Shown piece after piece: positions 2,680 through 59,623 of a stretch of 64,000 bases of DNA. The DNA lies in the IMG/VR virus record IMGVR_UViG_3300045988_175656. One strand, given 5' to 3'. The position numbers and the translations under genes are program-made. The notes under the pieces are model-generated. The model was not told the DNA's origin and did not search any database. It was given only the letters and a program-made list of their open reading frames with translations. Position 1 is the stretch's first letter. The number at the start of each line of letters is the position of its first letter. Source of the stretch: a virus.

Positions 2680-2799
2680 ACAGTATTAGCTCAGTTGGTT
2701 AGAGCATCAGCCCATAATAGAAATTTTTCAGTATTTGAAAAAACAGCAATATAATCTTAAACACGCAGAGGGTCATTGGTTCGAGTCCAATATACTGTT
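2680..2799 (+). tRNA. tRNA-shaped gene (probably CAU class) interrupted by the conserved hairpin/AGCAA module
   Basis: Acceptor acagtat/atactgt, D-arm gctc-agttggtta-gagc, T-arm attgg-ttcgagt-ccaat. Anticodon stem tcagc/gcaga encloses 53 nt beginning ccataat. The insert carries tttttca-gtatt-tgaaaaa followed by cagcaatataa (2724-2754). Confidence 0.6.
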
Positions 2800-5238: not shown

Positions 5239-5435
5239 CAATGGTTAGCTTAATTTGGTAAAGCGTTTCCCAATGATATAATTTCTTGCGCAATTGGAAT
5301 TATGTCATAACGACATGGAAAAGAATGGGTGTTGAAAAAAGAAGGATTTAGTAGAGTTTATTAGAGGTGCGCACCTCTAATAAAGGAAACTTGATTTGGA
5401 ATGAAGTAAAAAAGGTTCGAGTCCCCCACCATTGA
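5239..5435 (+). tRNA. tRNA-shaped gene with a ~110-nt insertion in the anticodon region and a weak T-stem
   Basis: Perfect acceptor caatggt/accattg, D-arm gctt-aatttggta-aagc and T-loop ggttcgagtcc. The stem tttcc (5266-5270)/ggaaa (5385-5389) encloses 114 nt, including the palindromic hairpin tagaggtgcgcacctcta. The T-stem has only 2 clear pairs. Confidence 0.4.
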
Positions 5436-5462
5436 CGATGTTTAATTATAAAATTATATTTC

Positions 5463-5809: not shown

Positions 5810-6786
5810 AAAAAGAAAACAAAGCGTTCTTTGAGAGAATTAAAACGAAATTTTATTAGTTTTTTATTAAAAATGGAAACATTTGGAAATGATAAACTAT
5901 TTAAAATATACAGTTAGCCCTCATAACTGTAAGGATAACGCAGTAATGTAATAAAGCAAACATGTGACAGTGTTTGCGATGCTTAATAAGCATTCCATAG
6001 AAGGGCAATATTGAGTATCATAACAAATGGAGTAAGGACGGGCAGAAATGAAAGTTTGTTATGACAAGGGGGATAAATCCTCTTTGTTGATACAGAAATG
6101 TAAATAAGAAAGTATTGGATAATGGTGCAATTCTTAACCGAGAAACGTGCTATTATAAATCATGTGGCAATTTAGACTTCGTAGCTCCCCCAAAGAGCGA
6201 TTAACGAGTGGTGTCGAATAGTAGAAATACAAAGTCTTTGTTAGAATCAAAAACTAACAGTCAAGTGGTAGTACAAAACATCTCAATTCGGTTAGATGTG
6301 TACAGATTGGTGTTTAAGTGGATTGTACTCAAAAGGTACAAATGCTTTGGGTCGCACCACATCAATCAGTTTTTAGATTAATAAAGGATTATTAGGAATC
6401 AAATTTATGCAGCAAAAGTGTGCGACACTTGTAGGTTAAAATGACCTTATTCCTCTGCAATATGAGGACAATATGAGTACCGCAAGGAAAATATTGAGAA
6501 AGTAAAAGTAATGATTTATCTAAGAGGGGTCGCCTTCTGAAGCCGAAAGCAGTTAGTCAAGAAATGAAATCTATGATACCTATGAGTAAGTGTTTAGTAG
6601 TTTTTCGCAAAACTATTGGTCATGCTATCTACTTAGCAGTAATGTTAAGTGTGAACATTCAGTTCCAACGCTGAAGTAATGATAGTATTAATGGTCATGT
6701 TCTCAGCCATACTTTTAACTCAAAGTGGGGGTCAATGCAGATGATTTTCTGTTGGAATGGTTCAATTCCATTTAAAAGTACTTTAA
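5810..6786 (+). ncRNA. large structured ncRNA candidate (~970 nt; class unknown, GOLLD/ROOL-like context)
   Basis: No ORF of 60 aa or more in any frame between 5762 and 7033. It sits behind its own consensus promoter, is visibly more G/C-rich than the flanks, and has many local helices (e.g. gcaaaca...tgtttgc at ~5957-5978 and tggaat-ggttca-attcca near 6754-6771). A small stem element and tRNA-Leu follow directly. Confidence 0.5.
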
Positions 6787-6850
6787 AGGAAACGTAGCAA
6801 ATATTTTAACTATCGAATTATTAATTTGAACAAAGTAAAAAATGTTTCCT
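6787..6850 (+). repeat. AGGAAAC...GTTTCCT stem element, copy 1 (small RNA or processing element)
   Basis: The 7-bp terminal stem aggaaac/gtttcct encloses gtagcaaatattttaac...aaaaaat. Copies also at 12574, 18556 and 18966. Confidence 0.6.
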
Positions 6851-7329: not shown

Positions 7330-8028
7330 ATGACAGTTAATTTGATTGTTGCAATTAGTGAGAATAATGCAATTGGTAAAAATGGCGATTTGTGTTTTCA
7401 TATTAAAGATGATTTAAGAAGATTCAAAGAACTTACAATAGGCAAACCAGTAATAATGGGATATAATACATATAAATCATTACCAAATGGTGCTTTACCA
7501 AAAAGAAAAAATATTGTTTTATGTGATAATGAAACAACAGTGTTGATTAAAGAAATGGTAACTTTGTTACCTTCATTAGAAGAAGCTATACAATATTGCG
7601 ATGATAACTGTTATGATGATATTTTTATAATTGGTGGTGGAATGCTCTACAAATATGCAATTGAACATGATTTAGTGGATATTTTGTATATTACAAAAAT
7701 ACATGAAATTGTTGAAGATGCAGATACATTTTTTCCAAATATTGATTATAATAAATGGGTAGAAAAAACAAAAGAAGATAAAGAAACTGAAGATGGTATC
7801 AAATATAGTTTTGTTAAATATAAAAGAAATAAAGCAAAATTTATTTTAAATCCTGATTCAATTCATGTTGACAAAATACATAAGGCTATTGAAAAGAAGA
7901 AAGAAAAATTTGGAGAAAGATATTGCCCATGTGTAACAAAATTAGCCCACTGTGAGGACACAATTTGTCCTTGCAAAGAATATAGGACTAATGGGGGAAA
8001 ATGTCACTGTGAGCTTTATATTGAGTGA
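7330..8028 (+). CDS. folA: dihydrofolate reductase fused to a ferredoxin-thioredoxin-reductase catalytic-chain-like Cys domain
   Basis: The N-terminal ~160 aa is DHFR-like (LIVAISENNAIGKNGDL, RFKELT, GYNTYKSLP, IIGGGMLY). The C-terminus has the CPC-x11-CPC-x9-CHC pattern (RYCPCVTKLAHCEDTICPCKEYRTNGGKCHCELY). Confidence 0.85.
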   Translation: MTVNLIVAISENNAIGKNGDLCFHIKDDLRRFKELTIGKPVIMGYNTYKSLPNGALPKRKNIVLCDNETTVLIKEMVTLLPSLEEAIQYCDDNCYDDIFIIGGGMLYKYAIEHDLVDILYITKIHEIVEDADTFFPNIDYNKWVEKTKEDKETEDGIKYSFVKYKRNKAKFILNPDSIHVDKIHKAIEKKKEKFGERYCPCVTKLAHCEDTICPCKEYRTNGGKCHCELYIE

Positions 8029-8126: not shown

Positions 8127-8240
8127 GGTGAGATTGAAATGTTGGTTAAATTTTTTCAGTATTGGAAAATTAGCAAATATTTAGAAATTCAGTTTAACAG
8201 TAAATTAAATATAACGTTGGTTCGATTCCAGCTCTCACCG
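8127..8240 (+). tRNA. tRNA-shaped gene carrying the conserved hairpin/TAGCAA module (paralog of 12452-12566)
   Basis: Acceptor ggtgaga/tctcacc and T-arm gttgg-ttcgatt-ccagc. The interior ttttttcagtattggaaaattagcaaatattt... (module 8152-8180) replaces a normal anticodon arm. Confidence 0.55.
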
Positions 8241-8282
8241 CAAAACGTTTTTTAACTTTGAAAAGTTGCATATGTTATTTAA

Positions 8283-9418: not shown

Positions 9419-9490
9419 GACTCCGAAGCATTTATGGTGATGCACTAGACTTTTAATCTAGGTAATTGGGTCCAAGTCCCAACGGGGTTA
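9419..9490 (+). tRNA. tRNA-Lys(UUU)
   Basis: Acceptor gactccg/cggggtt (with G-U pairs), D gcat/atgc, anticodon stem ctaga/tctag, loop cttttaa, T-arm ttggg-tccaagt-cccaa. Confidence 0.85.
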
Positions 9491-9510
9491 CTATGTAAGA
9501 GTTATAAGTA

Positions 9511-9999
9511 ATGTTAGAAAAATATATTTTTGAAAAAGGCTATACCATTAATGAAAATGGTATGGTATTTAACAATAGTGGAAAAAGAATTGGTCATTTA
9601 AGGCATAAAGCAAATGCACCTTATGAAATTATAAGATTTAGAATTAATGGTAAAATATGTACAGTATATACTCATAGATTACAAGCTTATAAAAAATTTG
9701 GTGAACAAATTTATAATAAAGGAATATTAGTAAGACATTTAGATGGTAATTCGTTAAATAATTCATGGGATAATATTAGTATTGGTACTAATTCTGATAA
9801 TCAAATGGATATTGAAAAAGATAAAAGAATTATTAGGTCATCTAATTCAAATAAAAAATATAGTGATAATATGGTATTTGAAATTTGTGAATATAAGAAA
9901 AAACATACTTATAAAGAAACGATGGAAAAATACAACATAAATAGTAAAGGAACATTACATTTTATTTTAAACAATAGATTATGTCTAAATAATGTCTGA
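9511..9999 (+). CDS. HNH homing endonuclease (HNH_3 type), free-standing between tRNAs
   Basis: Motif VRHLDGNSLNNSWDNISIGTNSDN; paralog of 14162-14650. Confidence 0.8.
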   Translation: MLEKYIFEKGYTINENGMVFNNSGKRIGHLRHKANAPYEIIRFRINGKICTVYTHRLQAYKKFGEQIYNKGILVRHLDGNSLNNSWDNISIGTNSDNQMDIEKDKRIIRSSNSNKKYSDNMVFEICEYKKKHTYKETMEKYNINSKGTLHFILNNRLCLNNV

Positions 10000-11183: not shown

Positions 11184-11930
11184 CCGAATAATGAAAGAGT
11201 TCATTATTTAAGATGATAAATAGTAATCAAAAAGAAAAACGAACTTTTATATTTATTTTTTAGTATGGTTCGAATAATTATATATAAAAATTGATTTTAT
11301 GAAAAAAGATGATTTGATTAAATATATAATTGATGAAGGTTTATCATATAGGGAAATTGGTAAAATTTATAATGTTAGTGATTCTTATATTAGAAAGATA
11401 GCACAAAAGTTAGGTATTATTCTGCCTAAAAGAAGAAAAATATCTAAAAATGAAACATTTAATAAAAATATTACTTTACTTGATAAAGTAAGTGATGATG
11501 ATTTTGTGGAGATAATATCAAAATCGAATAGTTGGATGGAAATAATCAATAATATAGGATATAAGAATATTGGTTCAAAAGTTAAAAAGAACATTTCAGA
11601 TAGGTGTGAAAAGTTAAATTTGAATCTAAATTTTAGTAAACTAACATTAATTGGATGCATAACAAAAGGTGAATTATTTAGTAATAGAAAAAATTGGCAG
11701 TCAGCTAGGAGTTCTATTCAAAAAATGGCTAGAAATATATTTTTCAAGCATAATAAAAAACCTAAATGTTGTATATGTGGTTATGACAAACATGTAGAAG
11801 TTGCACATATTAAACCAGTATCTGATTTTACTGATGAAACTTTAATTAAAGAAATAAATTCTATTGATAATTTGATTGGGTTATGTCCTAATCATCATTG
11901 GGAATATGATAATGGAATTTTAAAAATATA
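11184..11930 (+). mobile_element. intervening sequence inside tRNA(CAU) carrying an HNH endonuclease ORF
   Basis: Bounded by the two tRNA halves. It starts with a 9-bp hairpin aataatgaa-agag-ttcattatt, and the ORF stop codon abuts the 3' exon. Confidence 0.6.
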
Positions 11931-11931
11931 A
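11299..11931 (+). CDS. HNH endonuclease with N-terminal HTH-like region, encoded inside the tRNA intervening sequence
   Basis: C-terminal CCICGYDKHVEVAHIKPVSD...NLIGLCPNHHWEYD is an HNH motif with a zinc-ribbon-like Cys pair. Confidence 0.8.
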   Translation: MKKDDLIKYIIDEGLSYREIGKIYNVSDSYIRKIAQKLGIILPKRRKISKNETFNKNITLLDKVSDDDFVEIISKSNSWMEIINNIGYKNIGSKVKKNISDRCEKLNLNLNFSKLTLIGCITKGELFSNRKNWQSARSSIQKMARNIFFKHNKKPKCCICGYDKHVEVAHIKPVSDFTDETLIKEINSIDNLIGLCPNHHWEYDNGILKI

Positions 11932-12451: not shown

Positions 12452-12566
12452 AGAGGGGTTGAAATATTGGTCAAAATTTTTTCAGTATTGAAAAATTAGC
12501 AAATATTTAGAAATTCAGTTTAACAGTAAATTAAATATAATGTTGGTTCGATTCCAACCCCCTCTA
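12452..12566 (+). tRNA. tRNA-shaped gene carrying the conserved hairpin/TAGCAA module (paralog of 8127-8240)
   Basis: Acceptor agagggg/cccctct and T-arm gttgg-ttcgatt-ccaac. The interior is nearly identical to 8134-8232, including the module tttttcagtattgaaaaattagcaaatattt (12477-12506). Confidence 0.55.
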
Positions 12567-12573
12567 CAAATTA

Positions 12574-12637
12574 AGGAAACGTAGCAAATATTTTAACTAT
12601 CAAACTTTTAATTTGACGCAGTAAAAAAATGTTTCCT
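12574..12637 (+). repeat. AGGAAAC...GTTTCCT stem element, copy 2
   Basis: aggaaacgtagcaaatattttaactatc...aaaaaaatgtttcct. Sits 9 nt upstream of tRNA-Arg. Confidence 0.6.
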
Positions 12638-12972: not shown

Positions 12973-13545
12973 ATGAAGAAATTTATGTTGTTAATTTGTT
13001 TATGTTTATCTTGTATTACTTTGAATGCACAAAAATGGTATTCATCTGTTTCGACAGGATGTGATACATATACAAATTTATACAAAGATTTAAAGTTTGG
13101 GAAAACTTTAGCACCAACCGCAGCGATTGCAGTTGGAAGAGACCACAATCCTTATCTTGGTACAAGATTGGAAGTTAGAGTAGGCAATGCATTATTTTCT
13201 GATGGCGAGAATATTCGAATGAATACACCATTTTTAATGTCATTTGCTGATATGACATGTAATCTTACAAATGTAGTTTGTGGATTAAATAATCGGATTT
13301 ATGATGTAATCATATTTGGTGGTGTTGGTGAGGTTTATAACTTCAAAAACAGTACTTATGATATGAAAAGTTTAAATTGTTTTGCTTTGAGGTATGGTAT
13401 TAGTTGTGATGTATATGTTTACAATAATGATAAACTTACATTATTTGTTGAACCTACTTTTAATGTTAACAATTATCTGATTGATAAAAAGTTTACTTCA
13501 GATTATATCCTTAATTTATCAATTGGTATATTAGTGAAATTATAA
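12973..13545 (+). CDS. outer-membrane beta-barrel protein (OmpA-N/porin-like), signal peptide
   Basis: Signal MKKFMLLICLCLSCITLNAQ with alternating hydrophobic beta-strand pattern. The terminal region IGILVKL is aromatic/hydrophobic. Confidence 0.55.
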   Translation: MKKFMLLICLCLSCITLNAQKWYSSVSTGCDTYTNLYKDLKFGKTLAPTAAIAVGRDHNPYLGTRLEVRVGNALFSDGENIRMNTPFLMSFADMTCNLTNVVCGLNNRIYDVIIFGGVGEVYNFKNSTYDMKSLNCFALRYGISCDVYVYNNDKLTLFVEPTFNVNNYLIDKKFTSDYILNLSIGILVKL

Positions 13546-13705
13546 TGAGAAATATGATTCAAGGCGTAAAAACCTATGGGAACGGCTTCTCGGTTTAAGT
13601 GGCATTGGGTTCGAATCCCCTTGGGAGTTAGGTCGGCACAAGCTCGGAAGGTATATCTATCTTAAACTGTTTCATATATAAAATTATTATAACAATACAA
13701 CTATC

Positions 13706-13914
13706 AGCGATAGAGGGGGACGGTGATTTAAGTTTTGATATGTAAAAATTAGCTACTTTTATATATTTCCTACTTTTAATTGTAGGCAAAACAAGCATTG
13801 TTTTTAGAAAACAGATGTGGCACGTGACATGTTAAATTGAGTTGTAACAATGTTAAATCTAAACTCGCCACTCGCTTAGGGTGGAGAAAACAGGTTCGAC
13901 TCCTGTTATCGCAA
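13706..13914 (+). tRNA. tRNA-shaped locus with very large interior (low confidence)
   Basis: T-arm acagg-ttcgact-cctgt. 6-bp acceptor gcgata/tatcgc with a mismatched terminal pair. About 130 extra nt, and a candidate anticodon-like hairpin ccact-cgcttag-ggtgg. Confidence 0.35.
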
Positions 13915-13921
13915 CAAATAT

Positions 13922-14161: not shown

Positions 14162-14650
14162 ATGAATATAAGAAATGTAGTTGGATATGATAATTATATT
14201 GTCTCAGATAATGGTGAAGTTTTTAATAAAAGGAATATAAATAAGCCATTAAAAACTAGAATAAATAAACATGGTTATAAATATTTAAATTTATCAAAAA
14301 ATGGTATAGTTAAAAGTAAATTGATACATAGAATAGTTGCTGAAGCTTTTTTAAACTATCAAGATGGTGATGTTGTAAATCATAAAGATGGAAATAAATT
14401 AAATAATAATATTGATAATTTAGAATTTTGTACTCAAAAGGATAATGTGAAACATGCTTTTGATAATGGTTTAATGCATCCTATTAATGGTGAAGAATGT
14501 CCTTGGTCTAAATTAACTGATGAAGAAGTGTTGAAAATTAGAAATGAGTACATTCCTTTTATATGTTCTTATAATATGTTAGCTAAAAAATATAATGTAT
14601 CTAAATCTGAAATTATACAAATAGTGAATAACAAAATAAGAAAACTTTAA
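14162..14650 (+). CDS. HNH homing endonuclease (HNH_3 type), free-standing between tRNAs
   Basis: Motif VNHKDGNKLNNNIDNLEFCTQKDN; paralog of 9511-9999. Confidence 0.8.
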   Translation: MNIRNVVGYDNYIVSDNGEVFNKRNINKPLKTRINKHGYKYLNLSKNGIVKSKLIHRIVAEAFLNYQDGDVVNHKDGNKLNNNIDNLEFCTQKDNVKHAFDNGLMHPINGEECPWSKLTDEEVLKIRNEYIPFICSYNMLAKKYNVSKSEIIQIVNNKIRKL

Positions 14651-15204: not shown

Positions 15205-15238
15205 CTACAAGGGAACTGTAAGCAATATAATTAACTTT

Positions 15239-15310
15239 AGATTTGTAGTTTAGTGGTAAAATTTCAGGCTCATTACCTGAAGGTCAATGGTTCGAATCCA
15301 TTCAAACCCA
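15239..15310 (+). tRNA. tRNA(CAU)-like with two acceptor mismatches
   Basis: Anticodon stem tcagg/cctga, loop ctcatta, T-arm aatgg-ttcgaat-ccatt. The 3' half is identical to the tRNA at 15471. Acceptor agatttg/caaaccc pairs at only 5 of 7 positions. Confidence 0.6.
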
Positions 15311-15332
15311 AGTGAAGATGTTCTCTGTATAT

Positions 15333-15542: not shown

Positions 15543-15548
15543 CTTAGT

Positions 15549-15632
15549 CATGTGGGTCTTAACCTGAAATGGTAGTAAGGGGCAGACACTTAATCTGCTT
15601 GACTTAGTGAAGTTCGAATCTTCACCATATGA
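15549..15632 (+). tRNA. type II tRNA-shaped gene with non-canonical anticodon loop (cacttaa); identity unresolved
   Basis: Acceptor catgtgg/ccatatg, D ctta/taag with a large loop, stem gcaga/tctgc, extra arm, T-arm tgaag-ttcgaat-cttca. Followed by an encoded a-cca. Confidence 0.55.
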
Positions 15633-15699
15633 CCAATTATTTTATTAATTCAGATGGATGTTGTTGATTCAAGTTCCACACTATTCACAACTTTTTAAT

Positions 15700-16278: not shown

Positions 16279-16357
16279 CACTGTTAATCCAGAGATGGTA
16301 TCAAAGGTGGTTTTCATGTGTGTACAACATGAATGGGTTCGAATCCTATTACAGTGA
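16279..16357 (+). pseudogene. degenerate tRNA-like element
   Basis: Acceptor cactgtt/tacagtg (6 of 7 pairs), hairpin catgt-gtgtaca-acatg, T-arm atggg-ttcgaat-cctat. The D-arm and variable region do not fit a cloverleaf. Confidence 0.35.
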
Positions 16358-16825
16358 CACGGTTGCCTATGTTTGGATGCATACGAACATAGAACGTAGC
16401 TTAGTGAACGGTTCTAGTTTTTATGAAAATTAAAAACAACCGCACCCGTCACTCCAAATCGTTAGGTTGGCACTACCCTTTGTGAAGTAAAAGAAGGGAT
16501 ATTTTTTAAAAAGAAATTAGATGTATCTCAATGGTTATTATTAGTTGATGAATAAGTTGCAGTGGGCTAATTTCAAAGCATTCCAAAATTAGTTAAGATT
16601 TATATGTTGTATTTTGAAGTAAATTTTATTGATAGTTAACAATTAATAGGTTTAACATTAAATATGGTATATAATAGTTATCTAAGAGTAGCAATAAGGT
16701 TTTTCTTGTGAGATTGAAGAATTGTATAGAATGTGAGCGAATTCATTGTGTGAAAGTCACATACCCTTACAGTAGGAGTCTGTATAGATTAGTTTTAATC
16801 AGTCTGATTTCTTTTTAAAATAAAT

Positions 16826-16909: not shown

Positions 16910-17022
16910 GGGGAAGTAGCTCAATTGGTAGAGCAAATGTTAAAAAAATGTTTTTAGTATTAAAAATGTAGCAATTAAATGAGGAAATCATTGTGTCATT
17001 GGTTCGATTCCAATCTTCCCCG
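16910..17022 (+). tRNA. tRNA-shaped gene carrying a covarying copy of the hairpin/TAGCAA module
   Basis: Acceptor ggggaag/cttcccc, D gctc-aattggta-gagc, T-arm attgg-ttcgatt-ccaat. The stem aatg/catt encloses ~49 nt with ttttta-gtat-taaaaa + tgtagcaattaaat (16951-16980). Confidence 0.55.
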
Positions 17023-17068
17023 CTTTTTAACAAAAAATTAACATTGAATATTTGGTATTATAAAAAAT

Positions 17069-17185: not shown

Positions 17186-17399
17186 GGTGTGGTAGTTAAA
17201 TTGGAAACTTTCTTTTTATGTCAATAACATGTTTCATTCGCCAACAATTAGAATGATAGTGTGAGATATAAAATAGTTTATAAACTAAATGTTGAATAAG
17301 TATTCGAATTAAGTTCAGTAATAAGTTTATAAATGAAACGATAAGATAATGCTCCCAGATTTGAGGGAGTGATTGCAGGTTCGACTCCTGTTCATACCG
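17186..17399 (+). tRNA. tRNA-shaped locus with ~140-nt interior expansion
   Basis: Acceptor ggtgtgg/tcatacc (with G-U pairs), D-arm agtt/aact, T-arm gcagg-ttcgact-cctgt. The hairpin ctccc-agatttga-gggag lies just 5' of the variable region. Confidence 0.4.
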
Positions 17400-17406
17400 C
17401 AATAAT

Positions 17407-17478: not shown

Positions 17479-17588
17479 CAAAAAAAGGAATGTGTTATCC
17501 TGAGTGAATTAGTATAGTGCACTATGTTAATCAATCAAACAACTCTTTGCTGTCAGTCGTTTATCAGACTAAAACCAGACTGTCATTT

Positions 17589-17721
17589 CACGGGTTCGTC
17601 TAATGGTTAGGACGCTTAAAATTTTTAAAACTTTTTTCAGTATTGAAAAAATAGCAAAATAACTAATTTAAAATTATGCAATTCTGAAGCAGAAATAGAG
17701 GTTCGAGTCCTCTACCCGTGT
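17589..17721 (+). tRNA. tRNA-shaped gene carrying the conserved hairpin/TAGCAA module
   Basis: Acceptor cacgggt/acccgtg, D gtc-taatggttag-gac, T-arm agagg-ttcgagt-cctct. The stem gctt/aagc encloses ~70 nt with ttttttcagtattgaaaaaatagcaaaataa (17632-17660). Confidence 0.5.
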
Positions 17722-17736
17722 CAAGATGTGTTACAT

Positions 17737-17937: not shown

Positions 17938-18471
17938 ATGTGTAAGATTAAATTTTTAGAAGATACATCTGAAGGGTATGGTCATAGAACTTATATAAAT
18001 GCTGCAAGTGCAGATGTAACATTAGCTTTTGCGGTTGATTTTACAACAGGTGGGGAAAAATGTACAAAAGATGCTGCATTGAAAGCAAATAAGTTATATA
18101 TACCAATAAATTTGGATGATTCTAATTGGAAAGTTGACATACCTTATACAGCATGGATGATAAAAGAATTGCATTCTTTGAATATTGCAGGTAATGGTAT
18201 TTATACTTTAAGTAAATATAATATTTCACAGGATAAATGTGATAGAATGATTTATTACTTTATTGAAAGGTTAGTAAACGAATATGGATGTAAGATAACA
18301 AGTATTCGTAGTGGTGGTCAAACAGGCGTTGATGAATCGGGTTTGAAAGCAGGTGCTAAATTAAATGTTGAAACTATCAGCCTTTGTCCAAAAGGATGGA
18401 AATACAGAACACCAAAAAGAGATATTTGTGATGAACAAATGTTTAAAGAAAGGTTTAAAGAATATATTTAA
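17938..18471 (+). CDS. SLOG-superfamily (YpsA / putative molybdenum-carrier-like) protein
   Basis: Motif SIRSGGQTGVDESGLKAGAKL, typical of the YpsA/SLOG nucleotide-binding family. Confidence 0.6.
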   Translation: MCKIKFLEDTSEGYGHRTYINAASADVTLAFAVDFTTGGEKCTKDAALKANKLYIPINLDDSNWKVDIPYTAWMIKELHSLNIAGNGIYTLSKYNISQDKCDRMIYYFIERLVNEYGCKITSIRSGGQTGVDESGLKAGAKLNVETISLCPKGWKYRTPKRDICDEQMFKERFKEYI

Positions 18472-18555: not shown

Positions 18556-18660
18556 AGGAAACGTAGCAAATAATTTAAATTGGATAATAAATTTAAACTC
18601 GAAATTTTAATTTTAGAAGGTTCAAATCCTTTAACTCTTAGGAGTATAAACTTGTTTCCT
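18556..18660 (+). repeat. AGGAAAC...GTTTCCT stem element, copy 3 (longer, with embedded T-arm-like hairpin)
   Basis: aggaaacgtagcaaataatttaaa...gaagg-ttcaaat-ccttt...cttgtttcct. Confidence 0.55.
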
Positions 18661-18856
18661 GTTAACTTATAGAGCCTAATGTATTTCGAACACTGCATAA
18701 GGCAGAAAATAAAGAATAGATTCGAAGATTTGTTAAGTATGAAAATTTTTCATATAAAAACAATACAGCATTTATTGTTGATTAGAATTGATAGTCTTTC
18801 ATGTTACCATTTTCAACCCAATGATGCATTGAGATTGGTTTTTTGGGTAACAAATT

Positions 18857-18965: not shown

Positions 18966-19026
18966 AGGAAACGTAGCAAATAATTTAAACATTATTAAAA
19001 GGGTTAATAAATAAAAAATGTTTCCT
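18966..19026 (+). repeat. AGGAAAC...GTTTCCT stem element, copy 4
   Basis: aggaaacgtagcaaataatttaaac...aaaaaatgtttcct. Sits 6 nt upstream of tRNA-Asn. Confidence 0.6.
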
Positions 19027-19297: not shown

Positions 19298-19369
19298 CTA
19301 TTAAAATTATATTTCTTGGGGATGTTGGCTTGAAAGTAGCCATTGCAGAAATGCAAACTAATATCAAAA

Positions 19370-19762
19370 ATGTTTATGGATAGTAAAATTTGTAAAAGGT
19401 GCAATATAGAAAAACCACTTAGTGAGTTTTATAAACAACAACAAAAGGGTAAACAAAATCAAATATGGTATTACTATGATTCATATTGTAAAATATGTAG
19501 AGGGTGTTATGCCACTGAGCGTAGAAGGAAACTCAAAATTCAAGCAATTGAATATAAAGGTGGAAAATGTGCTGATTGTGGTTATGATGATATGAGTCAT
19601 CCAGAAGTGTTTGATTTTCATCATGAAAATCCAGAAGAAAAAGATTTTGCAATTTTTGAAACAGCAAAGAAATTTTCTTCAGTAATATCAGAATTAGATA
19701 AATGCATTTTACTTTGTGCAAATTGTCATAGAATTAGGCATAGAGAAGAAAGAGGATATTAG
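19370..19762 (+). CDS. HNH endonuclease with Cys-rich zinc-binding N-terminus
   Basis: ORF 19343-19762 trimmed to an internal ATG. Motifs CKRCN...CKICRGC and FDFHHENPEEKDF...LLCANCHRIRH. Confidence 0.75.
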   Translation: MFMDSKICKRCNIEKPLSEFYKQQQKGKQNQIWYYYDSYCKICRGCYATERRRKLKIQAIEYKGGKCADCGYDDMSHPEVFDFHHENPEEKDFAIFETAKKFSSVISELDKCILLCANCHRIRHREERGY

Positions 19763-20053
19763 TCGTTTAAAGAGTGTGCAAAAAGTGCCATAAGAGCCTT
19801 AAATGACAATAGAGTTAATAGCTATTGTTGATAGACTGTAATGGGAATATCCACAACATGAATCTGCCCAATACATTTTGATAGAAGTCAATCATTAGAT
19901 AGTATTTGAGTTAACTCCTAATGTTAACGTATATAAGGTAGTGTGGCGAGGGTACGAACTTAATTCTTGGTAAGACATACAAGAATGCTTTGGTGTAATA
20001 ACACACCCAAGAAGATAATTTATTTTTAATCCTCTTGCTTTCTTGTAAGAGTT

Positions 20054-20076
20054 AAGCCATTCTTTAATGGCTTTTT
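20054..20076 (+). terminator. rho-independent terminator
   Basis: Stem aagccat/atggctt followed by ttttt. Confidence 0.6.
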
Positions 20077-20084
20077 AAATTTTT

Positions 20085-30390: not shown

Positions 30391-30418
30391 CGAGAATCAT
30401 TTGTGGTTCTCGTTTTTT
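30391..30418 (+). terminator. rho-independent terminator (part of the repeated cassette)
   Basis: Stem cgagaatc/ggttctcg followed by tttttt. Confidence 0.7.
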
Positions 30419-30438
30419 ATTTCTATATTTGCAGTATG
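30405..30438 (+). repeat. Terminator-tail plus promoter cassette, copy 2 (identical to 1-34)
   Basis: Exact 34-nt match to the window start; includes the -7 box tatatttg at 30424-30431. Confidence 0.8.
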
Positions 30439-31335
30439 AAAAATGAAAATAATATTAATAACATTAAATATATGAGACAAGATTTTGAAGCAATAGTTCC
30501 TTTAATTAGAACACTTTGGAGAGAGTATTTAGTAAAACATAATATTAAATCAGTTGTAAATGGTGTTAGTGGTGGCTTGGATAGTGCAATTAATTGTGTG
30601 CTATTGAAGCCTGTGTGTGATGACTTGGGAATCCCTCTTATTGGAAGATATATCCATATCGAAACTAATAAAGAAGAGGAACAAAAACGTGCTGAAGCAA
30701 TTGGCAAATATTTTTGTACCGATTTTCAATCTATTGATATGACCGAAATATATTTAACAATGTTACCTAAAATAGAAGAAACTGGTCACATTATATATGT
30801 GGGTGATAATGCTTCTACAATGGAATATAAGCGTAAAATTAAACGAGGTAATATTAAAGCTCGTTTAAGAATGATTAAATTGCGTGACCTTGTGGCTGAA
30901 AATGATGGCTTATTGGTTGATAATGATAATAGAACTGAACATGAACTTGGTTTTTTTACATTAGATGGCGATGTGGGAGATGTTACTCCATTAGCAGATT
31001 TGTTTAAAACAGAAGTATTTGCTTTATCAAGATTTATATTAACTACTCTTGTATCAGAGGAAGAAAGAAAAGCTTTACAAGATGTAATAGATGCTGTTCC
31101 CACAGATGGTCTTGGTATTACATCATCTGATGTTGAACAGTTTGGTGCAAAGAGTTATGATGAAGTTGATGATATATTAATGAATATGCTTGGATATATT
31201 GAAAATCCTCTTCTTACTTTTGAAGATTTGTATTATAAGATGTTGAATAAATACAATGATGTGTTTATTAAAGTGTGGAGTAGACACTTAAATTCAGAAT
31301 TTAAAAGAAATTACCCATATCGTTTTAAACTTTAA
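30436..31335 (+). CDS. nadE: NH3-dependent NAD+ synthetase
   Basis: PP-loop VSGGLDSA and NadE-like length. The GTG at 30403 is rejected because it lies inside the terminator/promoter. The alternative start ATG 30472 is possible because the -7 box is only ~5 nt upstream of 30436. Confidence 0.8.
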   Translation: MKNENNINNIKYMRQDFEAIVPLIRTLWREYLVKHNIKSVVNGVSGGLDSAINCVLLKPVCDDLGIPLIGRYIHIETNKEEEQKRAEAIGKYFCTDFQSIDMTEIYLTMLPKIEETGHIIYVGDNASTMEYKRKIKRGNIKARLRMIKLRDLVAENDGLLVDNDNRTEHELGFFTLDGDVGDVTPLADLFKTEVFALSRFILTTLVSEEERKALQDVIDAVPTDGLGITSSDVEQFGAKSYDEVDDILMNMLGYIENPLLTFEDLYYKMLNKYNDVFIKVWSRHLNSEFKRNYPYRFKL

Positions 31336-40219: not shown

Positions 40220-42142
40220 ATGAAAAGAATTTTAGGTATTGATTTAGGCTCTACAAACTCAGCAGTGAGTGTGATTGAGAGTGGAAAAGCAATAATTGTA
40301 GTTAATGAGGAAGGTAGAAGAACTACCCCATCTGTGATTGCATTAAAGAATGGGGAAAGAAAAGTTGGAGAAGCTGCAAAAAGACAACGTGTTGTTAATC
40401 CTAAAGAAACTGTATCAATAATTAAAAGATTTATGGGGGCTGATTTTAATTCTTCTGAATGTCAAGAAGCTATTAAAAAAGTACCTTATGAAATTATTAA
40501 TAAGGATGGTAAAGCAAGAGTTCTAATTGAAAACAGAGAATATTCTCCTGAAGAATTATCTTCTTATATCATTTCTAAACTTAAAAAATGTGCCGAAGAT
40601 TATGTAGGTGGGGAAATTAAAGATGCTGTTATTACAGTTCCAGCATATTTTAATGATTCACAACGTACAGCAACTAAAGTCGCAGGTGAACTAGCTGGTT
40701 TGAATGTGTTAAGAATTATTAATGAACCAACAGCAGCTATTCTTTCTTCTGATATTGATATTAAACATGGTGAGAAAAATATTATGGTGTGTGACTTTGG
40801 TGGTGCAACAACTGATTTTTCTGTATGTAATTTGTCAGAAGGATTAACAGAAGTATTATCAACTTATGGTGATGTATTCCTAGGTGGTAGTGATATTGAT
40901 AATGCTATTGCAGAATGGATTATAAGCTCATTTAATGAAGAAAATGGTGTGGATTTAAAGAGTGATGCCCAAGCATTACAACGTGTCGTAGAAGCGGCTG
41001 AAACTGCTAAAATAGAGCTATCATCTTCTAGTTCTGCTGAAATTAATTTGCCTTATATTTGTAGTAAAGATAATACACCATTACATTTACAATATACATT
41101 AACAAGAGCTAAGTTTAATCAATTAACACAACCATTGATTGATAAACTGATTAAATGTGGTAAAGAGTCTTTGAAAAAAGCAAATCTTAAAGCAAATGAA
41201 CTTAATGGTATTTTGCTTGTTGGTGGGTCTTGTCGTTGTTTGAATGTACAAGATGCTTTAACCAAAGAATTTGGTGTAGAACTATTGAAATCAGCTAATT
41301 TGGATGAAGCTGTTTCATTAGGTGCAGCTATTCAAGCTAATATTATAGTTGGTGGAGAAGGAAGTTCTGATATGGTATTACTTGATGTAACTCCACTTTC
41401 AATGGGTATTGAAACAATGGGTAATGTGATGACAAAACTTATTGATGCAAATACAACAATTCCATGCAAAAAAAGCCAAATTTTCACAACTGCTGTGGAT
41501 AATCAGCCATCTGTTGATATTCATGTATTACAAGGTGAAAGACCAATGGCTAAAGATAATAAAACAATTGGTATGTTCCAATTAACTGATATTTTACCAG
41601 CAAGACGTGGTGTGCCACAAATTGAAGTAACATTTGATATTGATGCTAATGGTATTTTGAATGTTTCTGCAAAAGATAAAGGTACAGGAAAAGAACAGTC
41701 AATTAGAATTGAAGCAAGTAATGGTCTTTCTGATGCTGAAATTGAAAAAATCAAGCAAGAAGCAAAAGAACATGAAGCAGCAGATAAGAAATTGAAAGAA
41801 GAAGCTGATATAATTAATAATGGAGATGCTATGGTTTTTCAAACTGAAAAACAGATTGAAGAATATGGTGATAAAATTTCTTCAGATAGTAAGAAATCTT
41901 TAGAAGAACTAATTGAAAAGTTAAAAAATTCTTTAAAAGATAGAAATATATCTGATATTAAAGAAAACACTGATAAAATCACATCACAATGGCAAAAAAT
42001 TACTTCTGAAATGTATGCAACAGGTACTAATGGTGGTACATCTAATTTTGAAGATATTTTAAGAGGTGCAGCAAATGGTAATACAAAAACAGATACCAAA
42101 GAAGATAATGTAACTGATGCTGATTTTGAAGAAGTTAAATAA
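40220..42142 (+). CDS. dnaK: Hsp70 chaperone DnaK
   Basis: [19 protein letters not shown] and [14 protein letters not shown] signatures; 640 aa. Confidence 0.95.
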
Positions 42143-42188
42143 TATTTAAGGTAAATTAACATTAATAATGGTGCAGATTACGAATTAA

Positions 42189-42205
42189 TTTTGTATATTT
42201 GTACC
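42189..42205 (+). promoter_or_regulatory. promoter-like box enclosed in a 9-bp stem
   Basis: ttttgtatatttgtacc lies inside the helix aataatggt (42166-42174) / accattatt (42202-42210). Confidence 0.4.
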
Positions 42206-42239
42206 ATTATTGGTTTAATAACACATTAAAGAAAGATAT

Positions 42240-59497: not shown

Positions 59498-59623
59498 AGT
59501 TTAAAAACAATCCATTATAAATAGTGTGAATGGTATTGTGATGTAATTTATTCTATTTTATAGAAAGCGTAAAATAGAATAACTTTAGCGAAGTTTAGAA
59601 CATTGATAAAAACAAAAATATTT

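What the first reader, a model, noticed from the sequence alone, without database searches (positions are those of the whole stretch)
6787..6850. Four copies of a 60-105-nt AGGAAAC...GTTTCCT stem element flank tRNAs and share the TAGCAAATA core with the tRNA-embedded module
Copies at 6787-6850, 12574-12637, 18556-18660 and 18966-19026 all begin (A)AGGAAAC-GTAGCAAATA(T/A)TTTAA and end AAAAAATGTTTCCTGT. The ends form a 7-bp stem like an acceptor helix. Three copies end 6-9 nt upstream of a canonical tRNA (Leu-UAA, Arg-UCU, Asn-GUU), and each follows another RNA gene. The long copy contains a T-arm-like hairpin (gaagg-ttcaaat-ccttt). A degenerate 5' fragment (gggaactgtaagcaatataattaac, 15211-15235) precedes the tRNA at 15239.

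The GTAGCAAATA core is the same motif that follows the hairpin in the five interrupted tRNA-shaped genes, which links the two families. Possible roles:
- a free-standing or excised form of the intervening element
- a processing or punctuation signal in polycistronic tRNA transcripts
- a small RNA ligand for a phage protein
Basis: partly seen in the sequence, partly recalled or inferred. Interest (0 to 1): 0.65.

Follow-up and report, generated by a model that had tools for sequence, protein, structure and literature searches.

The report
Phage Y-RNA-like elements among tRNAs
The four repeats are real and belong to a larger family of small structured RNAs that sit between, around and inside tRNA-like genes of a giant gut phage, and they are most likely the RNA partners of a Ro60-like RNA-binding protein that the same phage encodes.

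Summary
AGGAAACGTAGCAAATA occurs exactly four times, all on the + strand (0.02 expected). Each copy closes with (T)GTTTCCT.

The family is larger than reported. The "degenerate fragment" at 15211 is a fifth complete copy (15210-15326) whose stem encloses a whole tRNA. A sixth, mini copy (48164-48195) lies in the 5'UTR of ORF 48199-49851 and ends 3 nt before the ATG.

The five tRNA-embedded modules are circular permutations of the same unit. That unit is an 8-bp helix (H1), a 3'-adjacent YAGCAA and a 5'-adjacent A-run. H1 covaries across paralogues and related phages: 93% of cells pair and all 8 pairs show double changes. G·U intermediates fit only a + strand RNA.

ORF 48199-49851 (Pfam DUF2828/DUF7788 plus vWA) models as a Ro60/TROVE protein. 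A covariance model built only from tRNA-cluster copies hits the sequence just upstream of this gene's start codon in other phages. In one phage the whole tRNA/element array sits directly upstream of the gene.

Best reading (about 0.55): a new class of Y-RNA-like ligands and operator for a phage Ro60-like protein, matured by tRNA-processing enzymes. Binding is inferred, not shown.

The parts
6787..6850 (+). F1: free-standing copy. H1 stem AGGAAACG/UGUUUCCU, J1 UAGCAAAUAUUUUAAC, interior hairpin UCGAA-UUAUUAA-UUUGA, J2 AGUAAAAAA. Follows a GOLLD-like RNA and a weak tRNA-like gene (6711-6780). Ends 8 nt before tRNA-Leu(UAA).
   Evidence: (79 bits)
12574..12637 (+). F2: free-standing copy. Its interior hairpin loop CUUUUAA is identical to the tRNA-Lys(UUU) anticodon loop. 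Follows the embedded-type tRNA-like gene E3. Ends 9 nt before tRNA-Arg(UCU).
15210..15326 (+). F5: fifth copy, with a tRNA nested inside. 5' arm AGGGAAC-UG-UAAGCAAUAUAAUUAACUUUA (15210-15237), tRNA 15238-15311, 3' arm AAGUGAAGAU-GUUCUCU (to 15326). The stem covaries among relatives: AGGAAAC/GUUUCCU in L085 and AGGGAAC/GUUCCCT in L043.
18556..18660 (+). F3: long copy. H1, J1, an interior that weakly matches tRNA model positions 9-63 and includes a covarying T-arm-like hairpin GAAGG-UUCAAAU-CCUUU, then a second hairpin ACUC-UUAG-GAGU and J2. Starts 5 nt after tRNA-Gly(UCC).
18966..19026 (+). F4: free-standing copy with the interior motif GGGUUAAUAAAU. Ends 6 nt before tRNA-Asn(GUU). Closest relative of the copies found in Ro60-like gene leaders and in distant phage L089.
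48164..48195 (+). F6: mini copy in the 5'UTR of the Ro60-like gene. AGAAAAA-U-AAGCAAUAAUUUAAAAA-GUUUUCU, followed by GUU-AUG. Lies downstream of the promoter at about 48100-48132. Candidate translational operator.
48199..49851 (+). Ro60/TROVE-like protein (Pfam DUF2828 + DUF7788 + vWA, MIDAS DxSxS conserved). Proposed protein partner of the elements.
50618..52177 (+). RNA ligase (PHA02142 OB fold + RNA_ligase). It is a neighbour of the Ro60-like gene in four other phages examined. Context only.
2724..2753 (+). E1 module inside tRNA-shaped gene 2680-2800: UUUUUCA-GUAUU-UGAAAAA-A-CAGCAAUAUA.
8152..8179 (+). E2 module inside tRNA-shaped gene 8127-8241: UUUUUCA-GUAU-UGGAAAA-U-UAGCAAAUA.
12478..12505 (+). 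E3 module inside tRNA-shaped gene 12452-12566. This gene is a paralogue of E2 with a fully compensated different acceptor stem, and it is absent in several relatives.
16950..16977 (+). E4 module. It replaces the anticodon loop of tRNA-shaped gene 16910-17023 (49-nt insert between AAUG and CAUU): GUUUUUA-GUAU-UAAAAAU-G-UAGCAAUUA.
17633..17661 (+). E5 module inside tRNA-shaped gene 17589-17722.

Best explanation
**What it is.** The elements are + strand RNA genes of one modular family. The core is an 8-bp helix (H1). Its 3' strand side is followed by YAGCAA(W)n, and its other strand is preceded by an A-run (GURAAAAA). Together these form a purine-rich internal loop between H1 and a variable distal domain.

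**Four settings of the same core.**
- With H1 formed by the RNA's own 5' and 3' ends and a small distal hairpin that mimics an anticodon arm or a T arm (F1-F4).
- With a whole tRNA as the distal domain (F5).
- With H1 capped by a GUAU loop and the junction strands leading into the anticodon stem of a tRNA-shaped scaffold (E1-E5).
- As a 32-nt mini version abutting the start codon of the Ro60-like gene (F6).

**Maturation (inferred).** RNase P and the tRNA 3'-end enzymes, cutting the flanking or host tRNAs, would release these RNAs from the polycistronic tRNA transcripts.

**Function (inferred).** The core is the binding site of the phage's Ro60/TROVE-vWA protein. On this reading the free-standing and embedded forms are phage Y-RNA analogues: a Ro-binding stem joined to tRNA-mimicking parts. 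They would act with the adjacent RNA-ligase and RNA-repair genes. The leader copy would let the protein repress its own translation once the RNA ligands are saturated.

**Shown versus inferred.** Shown: the family, the helix, the strand, the permutation, the Ro60-like fold of the protein model, and the genomic association. Inferred: binding, maturation and autoregulation.
For: 1. **Helix H1 is under selection as RNA.** Across 33 distinct paralogous and orthologous copies, 93% of cells pair and 8 of 8 pairs show changes on both sides. The covariation score is 0.669 against 0.257 for shuffles (0 of 500 reach it) and at most 0.28 for slid registers (tRNA-cluster copies alone). Orthologous series go through G·U intermediates: AGGAAAC/GUUUCCU, AGGGAAC/GUUCCCU, AGGGAAC/GUUCUCU, UGGAAACU/AGUUUCCA. 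These pair only in the + strand transcript.
2. **All copies are on the tRNA strand**.
3. **Permutation.** Embedded and free-standing forms share, in order around the helix, the A-run, H1b, H1a, one or two nt, then YAGCAA. For example, E4 reads AAAAAAAUGUUUUUAGUAU and the F4 3' end reads AAAAAAUGUUUCCUGUAC.
4. **Conservation in distant phages.** The family is present in phages whose cpYpsA or Ro-like proteins are only 58-61% identical: L089 11533-11589 and L099.
5. **The protein.** The AlphaFold2 model of ORF 48199-49851 has pLDDT 85. Its two best PDB matches are the TROVE domain and Ro60 of Thermus phage phiLo (9kop E 4e-7, 9l5y_B E 5e-6, probability 1.0). All other hits match the vWA domain only.
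6. **Copy in the gene's own leader.** In the window, the + strand pattern GTT[TC][TC]C[TC]GT hits only F1-F5 and position 48189. The pattern AGCAA.?TAATTTAAA hits only F3, F4 and position 48173. Orthologous leaders keep the element with different helices: AGAAAAU/GUUUUCU, CGGAAAU/AUUUCUG, AGUAAAC/GUUUACU, AGAAAUUU/AAAUUUCU, AGAUUUC/GAAAUCU, GAAAAUC/GAUUUUC, GGGGACU/AGUCCCC.
7. **Unbiased test.** Model R1 was built only from tRNA-cluster copies. Searched over 50 Ro-like loci (405 kb), it gave 16 hits at E<=10. Six of them end at the Ro-like start codon (L099 1441-1497, L105, L107, L135, L146, L095). By my estimate, about 0.07 would be expected by position alone.
8. **Adjacency.** In L099 the whole array lies directly upstream of the Ro-like gene and in the same orientation: three F copies, an E-type tRNA-like gene, and tRNAs. 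This is the arrangement described for Y RNAs next to Ro60 genes (PMC4201824, PMC12135203).
9. **tRNA mimicry.** Known bacterial and phage Y RNAs combine a Ro-binding terminal stem with tRNA-like parts (PMC4201824). Here F3 has a covarying T-arm-like hairpin and a weak match to tRNA model positions 9-63. F1 and F2 have anticodon-arm-like hairpins. The E forms place the module where YrlA places its Ro-binding stem.
10. **Gene neighbourhood.** In other phages examined the Ro-like gene sits beside RNA-repair genes: an RNA ligase in four of them, RlaP in one and a HAD phosphatase in two.
Against: - No binding or expression data exist. The protein-RNA link is guilt by association.
- The known Ro60 recognition motifs (GGUCCGA, GNCGAAN0-1G, CGAA) are absent, and no Rfam Y RNA-type model matches.
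- In the window the tRNA-cluster copies lie 29-41 kb from the Ro-like gene.
- Only about a quarter of the Ro-like genes sampled carry the leader element. L089 and L096 lack it.
- No sequence-level match to solved Ro60 proteins was found. The assignment rests on a predicted fold with TM 0.41-0.53.
- Many copies used for the helix statistics were found with a filter that required pairing, which inflates the percentage paired.
- The leader copy could be the target of some other regulator.
Confidence: 0.55

Rival explanations
1. The elements bind a protein or RNA other than the Ro60-like protein, for example the RNA ligase or repair enzymes, a host factor, or a host anticodon nuclease for which they act as decoys. 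The copy in the Ro-like leader would then be a regulatory site for that other factor.
For: Structure and conservation point to a ligand but do not identify it. The F2 hairpin loop CUUUUAA equals the tRNA-Lys(UUU) anticodon loop, a classic nuclease target. RNA-ligase and kinase/phosphatase genes are nearby.
Against: The element is specifically and repeatedly placed at the start codon of the Ro-like gene, not of the ligase or other genes. Ro60 proteins are the class known to bind RNAs with a terminal stem and tRNA-like parts (PMC4201824).
Confidence: 0.14
2. The elements are cis-acting processing or punctuation signals. The stem and the AU-rich loop would direct an endonuclease that separates the RNAs of the polycistronic tRNA transcripts. 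In F5 the stem would act as a leader-trailer helix around a tRNA.
For: Positions 4-9 nt from tRNA ends. F5 pairs the leader and trailer of a tRNA. In L089 the element is the first thing after a promoter.
Against: Only 5 of about 40 RNA junctions have it. Most tRNAs in the array are 4-20 nt apart with no element. The same core sits inside tRNA-like bodies and in an mRNA leader 3 nt from the AUG. An 8-bp helix is too short for RNase III. The conserved AGCAA/A-run loop is not needed for an RNase E-type site.
Confidence: 0.1
3. The elements are decaying tRNA genes (acceptor stem plus remnants) with no function of their own.
For: A 7-bp terminal stem. GUAGC resembles U8-A9-G10-C11. F3 has a T-arm-like hairpin and a weak tRNA match (19.5 bits). 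F1 and F2 have a 5-bp/7-nt-loop hairpin. F5 shows a tRNA in the same frame.
Against: No tRNA model hit for F1, F2 or F4. The helix and motif are maintained with compensatory changes across phages 58-61% identical in protein. The same motif is embedded in the anticodon position of other tRNA-like genes and lies upstream of a protein gene. The interior tolerates indels while the ends stay fixed.
Confidence: 0.07
4. The elements are a mobile DNA element (MITE-like, or the free form of a small tRNA intron). The terminal inverted repeats would be its ends and the embedded hairpins would be abutted ends or circle junctions.
For: Multiple copies. 7-8-bp inverted termini. Presence/absence polymorphisms: an extra copy in L091/L092, and E3 absent in several relatives. 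Flanks ..AU/GU.. resemble the two halves of the GUAU loop. TnpB and HNH genes lie nearby.
Against: All copies are on one strand. No target-site duplications (flanks). Positional orthology is stable across relatives. The termini differ among copies in one genome yet always stay complementary, with G·U states that pair only as + strand RNA. Removing the module does not restore a normal tRNA. None found in 185,579 bacterial genomes.
Confidence: 0.07
5. The elements are small self-cleaving ribozymes that mature neighbouring tRNAs, as proposed for the HDV-like theta ribozymes of gut phages.
For: They start 4-6 nt after tRNA 3' ends. Gut Bacteroidota phage context. Circular permutation is typical of small ribozymes. 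The concept is documented in PMC10879173.
Against: No ribozyme family matches even at E<=10. The sequence cannot be threaded onto the nested double pseudoknot; a P1 partner was found for F2 only (my inspection, 6 sequences). Very few G/C residues and no conserved catalytic-C context. Presence in an mRNA leader next to the AUG.
Confidence: 0.04

Closest known systems
Bacterial and phage Y RNAs (YrlA/YrlB, Yrn1; Yrl1/Yrl2 of Thermus phage phiLo) bound by Ro60/Rsr
   Same: - Small RNAs whose 5' and 3' ends form a stem next to a large internal loop that carries the protein-binding motif.
- They are combined with tRNA-mimicking parts (T arm, D arm).
- They are encoded upstream of, and co-oriented with, a Ro60/TROVE-vWA gene and processed from longer precursors.
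- Several paralogues occur per genome, and permuted arrangements of the tRNA-like parts are known (PMC4201824, PMC12135203).

Here the F forms have the terminal stem plus loop. F3 has a T-arm-like hairpin. The E forms put the module at the anticodon position of a tRNA mimic, as YrlA does. L099 has the array directly upstream of the Ro-like gene.
   Different: - The loop motif is YAGCAA opposite an A-run, not GGUCCGA, GNCGAA or CGAA, and no Rfam Y-RNA model matches.
- The protein belongs to a distant TROVE-like family (DUF2828/DUF7788) that is detectable only by fold.
- Copies are scattered through a 14-kb tRNA array, 29-41 kb from the gene in this phage.
- One copy encloses a real tRNA.
- In the embedded copies the RNA ends are at the acceptor stem and the presumed binding helix is capped, the reverse of YrlA.
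- A mini copy overlaps the translation start region of the protein's own mRNA.
- Binding is untested.
Autoregulatory operators that mimic the RNA ligand (ribosomal-protein leaders; the ThrRS operator that mimics the tRNA-Thr anticodon arm)
   Same: A reduced copy of the protein's presumed RNA ligand sits at the ribosome-binding region of the protein's own mRNA (F6 ends 3 nt before the AUG). It is conserved with covariation in orthologous leaders.
   Different: No experimental evidence of repression. Only about a quarter of orthologous genes sampled carry it. Bacteroidota-type translation initiation does not rely on a Shine-Dalgarno sequence (general knowledge), so the repression mechanism would be occlusion of an unstructured A-rich leader.
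HDV-like theta ribozymes next to gut-phage tRNAs (PMC10879173)
   Same: Short structured elements placed within a few nucleotides of tRNA 3' ends in Bacteroidota-infecting gut phages.
   Different: No HDV-like fold, no catalytic core and no Rfam match. The elements also occur inside tRNA-like genes and in an mRNA leader.
GOLLD/ROOL-type large phage RNAs associated with tRNAs
   Same: Phage non-coding RNAs that are co-located with tRNA arrays and can hold a tRNA inside a variable region. A GOLLD-like RNA (6305-6709) lies immediately upstream of F1.
   Different: The elements are 10 times smaller and unrelated in sequence. They have a single conserved helix plus an internal loop.

Membership tests
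Y RNA / Yrl (Ro60-associated RNA) | 5' and 3' ends pair into a stem that flanks a large internal loop or bulge; size about 80-130 nt | tested here: met
   H1 of 8 bp formed by the termini, with covariation. Internal loop YAGCAA versus A-run. Sizes are 51-118 nt, so some copies are shorter than classical Y RNAs.
Y RNA / Yrl (Ro60-associated RNA) | Conserved Ro60-contact motif (GGUCCGA in animals; GNCGAAN0-1G or CGAA in bacteria and phage) | tested here: not met
   No such motif in any copy. The invariant block is AGCAA. Motif definitions come from PMC4201824 and PMC12135203.
Y RNA / Yrl (Ro60-associated RNA) | Encoded next to a Ro60/TROVE gene | tested here: met
   F6 lies in the 5'UTR of the Ro60-like ORF. 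Leader copies occur in 13 or more other phages. The whole array is directly upstream in L099. However, F1-F5 in the window lie 29-41 kb away.
Y RNA / Yrl (Ro60-associated RNA) | A tRNA-like domain (T and D arms) in at least one Y RNA of the genome | tested here: met
   E1 and E4 score as tRNA with the module in place of the anticodon loop (47 and 52 bits). F3 has a covarying T-arm-like hairpin and matches tRNA model positions 9-63 at 19.5 bits. The L099 14-96 copy has AUGG-UUCAAGC-CCAU.
Y RNA / Yrl (Ro60-associated RNA) | Physical binding to the Ro60 protein | not testable with these tools
   Needs EMSA, RIP or a structure.
Y RNA / Yrl (Ro60-associated RNA) | Match to curated Rfam Y RNA-type covariance models | tested here: not met
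   No such hit at gathering score on the whole window, at E<=1 over 1-21000, or at E<=10 on the element regions.
Ro60/TROVE protein (for ORF 48199-49851) | HEAT-repeat ring (TROVE) followed by a vWA domain with a MIDAS motif | tested here: met
   AlphaFold2 model pLDDT 85, pTM 0.86. Foldseek best hits are 9kop 'Trove domain' and 9l5y_B 'Ro60 of Thermus phage phiLo', probability 1.0, over about 560 columns. D324/T325/S326/S328 are invariant. Pfam VWA_2 hit. Sequence searches against PDB found nothing.
tRNA (RF00005) | Cloverleaf scoring above the Rfam gathering score or called by ARAGORN | tested here: not met
   F1, F2 and F4 get no hit. The F3 interior scores only 19.5 bits against a gathering score of 29.
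HDV-like (theta) ribozyme | Nested double pseudoknot (P1, P1.1, P2, P3, P4) with a catalytic C in J4/2; cleavage at its own 5' end next to a tRNA 3' end | tested here: not met
   Position next to tRNA 3' ends is met (4-6 nt). There are no Rfam ribozyme hits. Manual threading found a P1 partner in F2 only. Self-cleavage itself is not testable here.
MITE / IS-derived element | Terminal inverted repeats with target-site duplications, copies in either orientation, empty sites | tested here: not met
   7-8-bp inverted termini are present, but there are no duplications. All copies are on the + strand. Positions are orthologous among relatives. Two presence/absence cases exist (Fa, E3).
Integron attC site | R''/R' boxes RYYYAAC...GTTRRRY, an unpaired central spacer, a variable terminal structure, and an integron integrase | tested here: not met
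   The AAC...GTT core and the overall layout resemble attC. But the boxes are RRRRAAC/GTTYYYY, strandedness and G·U states indicate RNA, and no integrase appeared among the 40 ORFs scanned. Not all ORFs were scanned.

The most novel reading that the evidence does not exclude
The helix-plus-AGCAA loop is a portable 'Ro60 tag' that these jumbo phages graft onto tRNA biology in every possible topology: alone with an anticodon-arm or T-arm mimic, wrapped around a live tRNA, or in place of the anticodon loop of tRNA decoys. The tag would recruit a Ro60-like/RNA-ligase repair machine to tRNAs, or to baits for host anticodon nucleases. The same tag in the protein's mRNA would set the protein level. 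The F2 hairpin copies the tRNA-Lys(UUU) anticodon loop, and the tRNA wrapped by F5 changes its anticodon between close relatives. Both would fit an arms race with tRNA-cleaving defences.
Probability: 0.2. Interest if true: 0.85.

Novelty: new variant of a known kind. Interest (0 to 1): 0.72.

Why it matters
**A partner for an uncharacterised protein family.** If the link holds, a large family of phage proteins (DUF2828/DUF7788; 1,452 homologues at E<=1e-5) gains both an identity (Ro60-like) and a defined RNA partner. A new, easily searchable class of Y-RNA-like molecules is added, with a recognition loop unlike any described.

**An explanation for odd RNA genes.** It would explain part of the unannotated RNA content of tRNA arrays in giant gut phages: tRNA-shaped genes that cannot decode, and conserved 'spacers'.

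**A compact test system.** It offers a protein, six to eleven natural RNA variants in three topologies, and a built-in operator. These could be used to study how Ro60 proteins recognise RNA and how phages couple tRNA supply, tRNA repair and RNA quality control during infection of Bacteroidota.

**A general lesson.** Circular permutation of a protein-binding RNA module between 'closing stem' and 'capped hairpin' forms is also of general interest for RNA motif discovery.

Tried and rejected
- **Minus-strand promoter.** The reverse complement of the core contains ATATTTGC, the -7 box core of the phage's 21 Bacteroidota-type promoters. But it reads aATATTTGCtac rather than TAnnTTTG, and it lacks a -33 TTTG at the right spacing. 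Copies 3 and 4 read TTATTTGC. Rejected.
- **tmRNA-like reading** (resume codon GCA after UAGC). The putative tags are 2-14 codons and are not conserved among copies or orthologues. ARAGORN finds no tmRNA. Rejected.
- **Spliceable tRNA introns.** Infernal places a 49-nt insert in place of the whole anticodon loop of E4. No contiguous deletion restores a 7-nt loop with U33 and a plausible anticodon in E1, E4 or E5 (my inspection). Rejected.
- **HDV-like threading.** Fails except for a fortuitous P1 in F2.
- **attC and MITE readings.** See the membership tests.
- **CRISPR-repeat mimic.** Considered from memory only and not tested.
- **Searches that found nothing beyond the close clade.** An exact 16-mer, the embedded-module pattern and a gapped pattern in IMG/VR. 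A gapped pattern in metagenomes returned 22 stretches, of which only 7 were real and all were close relatives. Bacterial genomes gave none. INPHARED phages gave only tRNA-level hits.
- **Protein-based locus searches.** ORF 12973-13545 found only the same clade. Most cpYpsA relatives in IMG/VR have no tRNA cluster nearby.
- **Model R1.** It found no further copies elsewhere in the window.
- **Element next to the Ro-like gene in L096 and L089.** None found.
Full report
**Setting.** The window is AT-rich phage DNA. It carries 31 ARAGORN tRNAs on the + strand between 6859 and 20172 and a GOLLD-like RNA at 6305-6709 (93 bits, below the gathering score, E 1.7e-23). It has about 21 promoters of the Bacteroidota type, TTTG-N21-TAtaTTTGCaaag. 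Its close relatives are human-gut contigs of 220-400 kb. Variably present HNH endonuclease genes break the collinearity among these relatives.

**The observation.** AGGAAACGTAGCAAATA occurs four times, at 6787, 12574, 18556 and 18966, all on the + strand, against 0.02 expected. The four copies share an invariant 5' AAGGAAACGTAGCAAATA.TTTAA and 3' TGTTTCCTGT around a variable, AT-rich interior. The ends pair as 8-9 bp. Copy 3 does not end in AAAAAATG.

**A fifth and a sixth copy.**
- The 'degenerate fragment' at 15211-15235 has its partner strand at 15320-15326, beyond the tRNA at 15238-15311. The unit AGGGAAC-UG-UAAGCAAUAUAAUUAACUUUA-[tRNA]-AAGUGAAGAU-GUUCUCU is therefore a complete element wrapped around a tRNA.
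- The relatives have AGGAAAC/GUUUCCU (L085) and AGGGAAC/GUUCCCU (L043) at the same place.
- On the + strand of the whole window, the 3'-end pattern GTT[TC][TC]C[TC]GT hits only these five copies and position 48189. The pattern AGCAA.?TAATTTAAA hits only F3, F4 and position 48173.
- Together these define a 32-nt mini copy at 48164-48195 that ends 3 nt before the ATG of ORF 48199-49851.

**Relation to the embedded modules.**
- Five tRNA-shaped genes carry a hairpin followed by YAGCAA: 2680-2800, 8127-8241, 12452-12566, 16910-17023 and 17589-17722. A sixth occurs in relatives.
- For 16910-17023, Infernal shows a normal acceptor stem, D arm and T arm, with a 49-nt insert replacing the anticodon loop.
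- Lining up all copies shows one unit: A-run, helix strand H1b, [GUAU loop or the RNA termini], helix strand H1a, one to three nt, then YAGCAA(W)n.
- In the embedded (E) form the helix is capped and the junction strands run into the tRNA body. In the free-standing (F) form the helix is made by the two ends and the junction strands are joined by a small distal domain.
- The sequence similarity crosses the permutation point. E4 reads AAAAAAAUGUUUUUAGUAU and the F4 3' end reads AAAAAAUGUUUCCUGUAC. E6 reads UGGAAAUGUAGCAAUUA and the F 5' end reads AGGAAACGUAGCAAAUA.
- So the two families are circular permutations of one RNA module, as happens with small structured RNAs. They are not an element and its fragment.

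**It is an RNA, and the helix is selected.**
- More divergent relatives were reached through homologues of the cpYpsA gene at 17938-18471.
- Orthologous copies change the helix while keeping it paired. F3 reads AGGAAACG/UGUUUCCU in the window, AGGGAAC/GUUCCCU in L067, AGGGAAC/GUUCUCU in L042, UGGAAACU/AGUUUCCA in L085 and UGGAAACU/AGUUUUCA in L091. An extra copy in L092 reads AGGGGACA/UGUUCUCU.
- On 21 distinct tRNA-cluster copies, 95% of cells pair and 5 of 8 pairs change on both sides.
- With 12 leader copies added (33 sequences), 93% of cells pair and all 8 pairs change on both sides. The covariation score is 0.669, against 0.257 for shuffles (0 of 500 reach it) and at most 0.28 for slid registers.
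- The G·U intermediates pair only in the + strand transcript, and every copy is on the tRNA strand.
- Caveat: most copies were collected with a filter that demanded pairing, so the percentage paired is inflated. The orthologous series and the register control do not depend on that filter.
- The interior tolerates indels: an 18-nt deletion in L043 F3 and a 6-nt insertion in L062 F1. H1, AGCAA and the A-run stay fixed.
- The distal domains mimic tRNA arms. The F3 hairpin GAAGG-UUCAAAU-CCUUU covaries (GGAGG/CCUCC, AAAGG/CCUUU), and the F3 interior matches tRNA model positions 9-63 at 19.5 bits. F1 and F2, and a copy in L099, have a 5-bp stem with 7-nt loops UUAUUAA, CUUUUAA and AUUGUAA.

**The protein.**
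- ORF 48199-49851 hits Pfam DUF7788, DUF2828 (borderline) and VWA_2.
- It has 1,452 homologues, almost all unnamed, on phage-like contigs.
- An AlphaFold2 model from a 32-sequence alignment has pLDDT 85 and pTM 0.86.
- Its two best PDB matches are the TROVE domain and the Ro60 dimer of Thermus phage phiLo (E 4e-7 and 5e-6, probability 1.0, about 560 aligned columns). All later hits match the vWA domain only.
- Sequence searches against PDB find nothing.
- The gene is followed by an RNA ligase here. In other phages examined it lies beside RNA-repair genes: an RNA ligase in four of them, RlaP in one and a HAD phosphatase in two. This is the RNA-repair context in which ROT/TROVE proteins with a tRNA-like RNA partner are described for jumbo phages (PMC7824862).

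**The link between RNA and protein.**
- *Orthologous leaders.* Leaders of this gene keep the element with different helices. L094 reads AUAGAAAAU...GUUUUCUGU-AUG. L098 reads CGGAAAU...AUUUCUG-UU-AUG. L099 carries a full-length 57-nt copy, AGUAAAC-U-UAGCAAUUUAC...UUUAGGUUUAAU...AAAAC-GUUUACU-GUU-AUG.
- *Regex survey.* Among 67 Ro-like genes, a strict search found the arrangement H1a-N(2-5)-AGCA-...-H1b just upstream of the ATG in 13 genuine cases, plus the window clade. The same test gave 3% at random positions. Helices were as different as AGAUUUC/GAAAUCU and GGGGACU/AGUCCCC.
- *Unbiased test.* Covariance model R1, built only from tRNA-cluster copies, was run over 50 Ro-like loci (405 kb, both strands). 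Of 16 hits at E<=10, six end at the Ro-like start codon: L099 1441-1497, L105 2930-2991, L107 2931-2991, L135 2968-3018, L146 2971-3020 and L095 9939-9997. A 70-nt target in about 16 kb of searched sequence per locus predicts about 0.07 such hits (my arithmetic).
- *Adjacency in L099.* The Ro-like gene (61% identical to the window's) is directly preceded, in the same orientation, by:
  - an F copy with a T-arm-like hairpin (14-96);
  - tRNA-Met;
  - an F copy with helix GGUAAAC/GUUUACC (466-527);
  - an E-type tRNA-like gene with helix GUUUUC/GAAAAC followed by A-UAGCAAC (627-745);
  - an F1/F2-type copy (768-831);
  - tRNA-Asp;
  - a tRNA-like gene with an insert;
  - the leader copy.
  This is the layout reported for Y RNAs and Ro60 genes in bacteria and phages (PMC4201824, PMC12135203).

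**Interpretation.** The best-supported reading is that the element is the recognition module of a new class of Y-RNA-like RNAs for a phage Ro60-like protein.
- The F forms have the classical Y-RNA layout: a terminal stem, an internal loop carrying the motif, and a distal part that mimics a tRNA arm.
- The E forms put the module where YrlA puts its Ro-binding stem, at the anticodon end of a tRNA mimic, but with the ends at the acceptor stem.
- F5 shows that the distal part can be a real tRNA. After RNase P and 3'-end processing it would leave a two-piece helix plus loop.
- The F and E RNAs would be released by the enzymes that cut the neighbouring or host tRNAs (inferred).
- The leader copy, 3 nt from the AUG, would be an operator (inferred).
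- I put the structured + strand RNA family at about 0.9 and the Ro60-like partnership at about 0.55.

**What speaks against it.**
- There are no binding or expression data.
- The known Ro60 contact motifs are absent, and no Rfam Y-RNA model matches.
- The cluster copies are 29-41 kb from the gene in this phage.
- Only about a quarter of the sampled genes have the leader copy.
- The fold assignment rests on a prediction with moderate TM-scores.

**Rivals.** The rivals are another ligand (including decoys for anticodon nucleases), a processing signal, tRNA relics, a mobile DNA element, and a ribozyme. They are set out in the Rival explanations section with their evidence. Each fails to account for at least one of three facts:
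- the covarying helix with G·U states on one strand;
- the occurrence in three topologies;
- the repeated placement at the start codon of one particular gene.

**Novelty.**
- Y RNAs next to phage Ro60 genes are known.
- This recognition loop, this TROVE-like protein family, the multi-copy dispersal in a tRNA array, the permuted and tRNA-enclosing forms and the leader copy are not in Rfam 15.
- They were also not found in the literature searches.
- The element was not found in 185,579 bacterial genomes.
- I class it as a new variant of a known kind.

Noticed in passing
window 6305-6709 (and about 5815-6305 upstream): GOLLD-like large RNA: RF02032, 93 bits, below the gathering score of 150 but E 1.7e-23. 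It lies downstream of a promoter at about 5797. It is followed by a weak tRNA-like gene (6711-6780, 20 bits) and then F1. A similar GOLLD-like stretch follows tRNA-Thr in L089 (12440-12740).
   Followed up: partly
window 8127-8241 vs 12452-12566: Two tRNA-shaped paralogues have interiors about 95% identical, but their acceptor stems differ at 4 of 7 pairs, all compensated (GGUGAGA/UCUCACC vs AGAGGGG/CCCCUCU). The second gene is absent from several close relatives, where tRNA-Met is followed directly by F2.
   Followed up: partly
window 15238-15311 (tRNA inside F5): The tRNA enclosed by the fifth copy has anticodon CAU here, UUU in L024/L035 and a CAC-like loop in L085. Its acceptor stem has a mismatch. 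This is a fast-changing identity in otherwise 93-97% identical DNA.
   Followed up: no
window 12600-12616 (F2 hairpin) vs 9419-9491: The interior hairpin of F2 has the 7-nt loop CUUUUAA, identical to the anticodon loop of the phage tRNA-Lys(UUU). F1 and an L099 copy have the same 5-bp/7-nt design with other 'anticodons' (AUU/AUC, UGU).
   Followed up: partly
window 17186-17400, 5239-5436, 13560-13920, 15545-15640, 16280-16800, 17480-17590, 18661-18856, 19780-20084: More unannotated, ORF-poor stretches lie in the tRNA array, and many end in T-arm plus acceptor-like sequence. ARAGORN with introns calls 17186-17400 a tRNA with a 142-nt insert. They are likely further tRNA-like or large non-coding RNAs.
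   Followed up: no
window 9511-9999, 11299-11931, 14162-14650, 19343-19762: HNH (and one unassigned) free-standing endonuclease-like ORFs lie between tRNAs. They are present or absent in different close relatives and account for most breaks in collinearity.
   Followed up: partly
window 50618-52177, 59603-60829, 43328-43987: An RNA-repair-type gene set: an RNA ligase with a PHA02142 OB fold, an HD phosphohydrolase fused to an AAA_33 kinase (polynucleotide-kinase-like), and another HD protein. In other phages the Ro60-like gene sits beside RlaP, HAD_SAK_2 and the same ligase.
   Followed up: partly
window 7330-8028: Dihydrofolate reductase fused to a C-terminal Cys-rich domain that matches the ferredoxin-thioredoxin reductase catalytic chain (FeThRed_B). 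It is embedded in the tRNA array.
   Followed up: no
window 40220-43331, 46663-47553, 30403-31335: The phage encodes DnaK and DnaJ chaperones, a sigma-70-family factor just upstream of the Ro60-like gene, and an NAD synthase.
   Followed up: no
L091 2861-2911, L092 3218-3275: An extra free-standing copy lies between the cpYpsA gene and tRNA-Gly(UCC) in two relatives (81-83% identical in protein). It is absent at that site in the window and in L085. So copies are gained or lost as discrete units.
   Followed up: partly
L088 7671-8837, L093 12276-13595, L094 20549-end, L099 3528-end: TnpB (OrfB_IS605/Cas12f-like) genes lie next to the tRNA/RNA clusters or the Ro60-like gene in several related phages. 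None was seen in the window.
   Followed up: no
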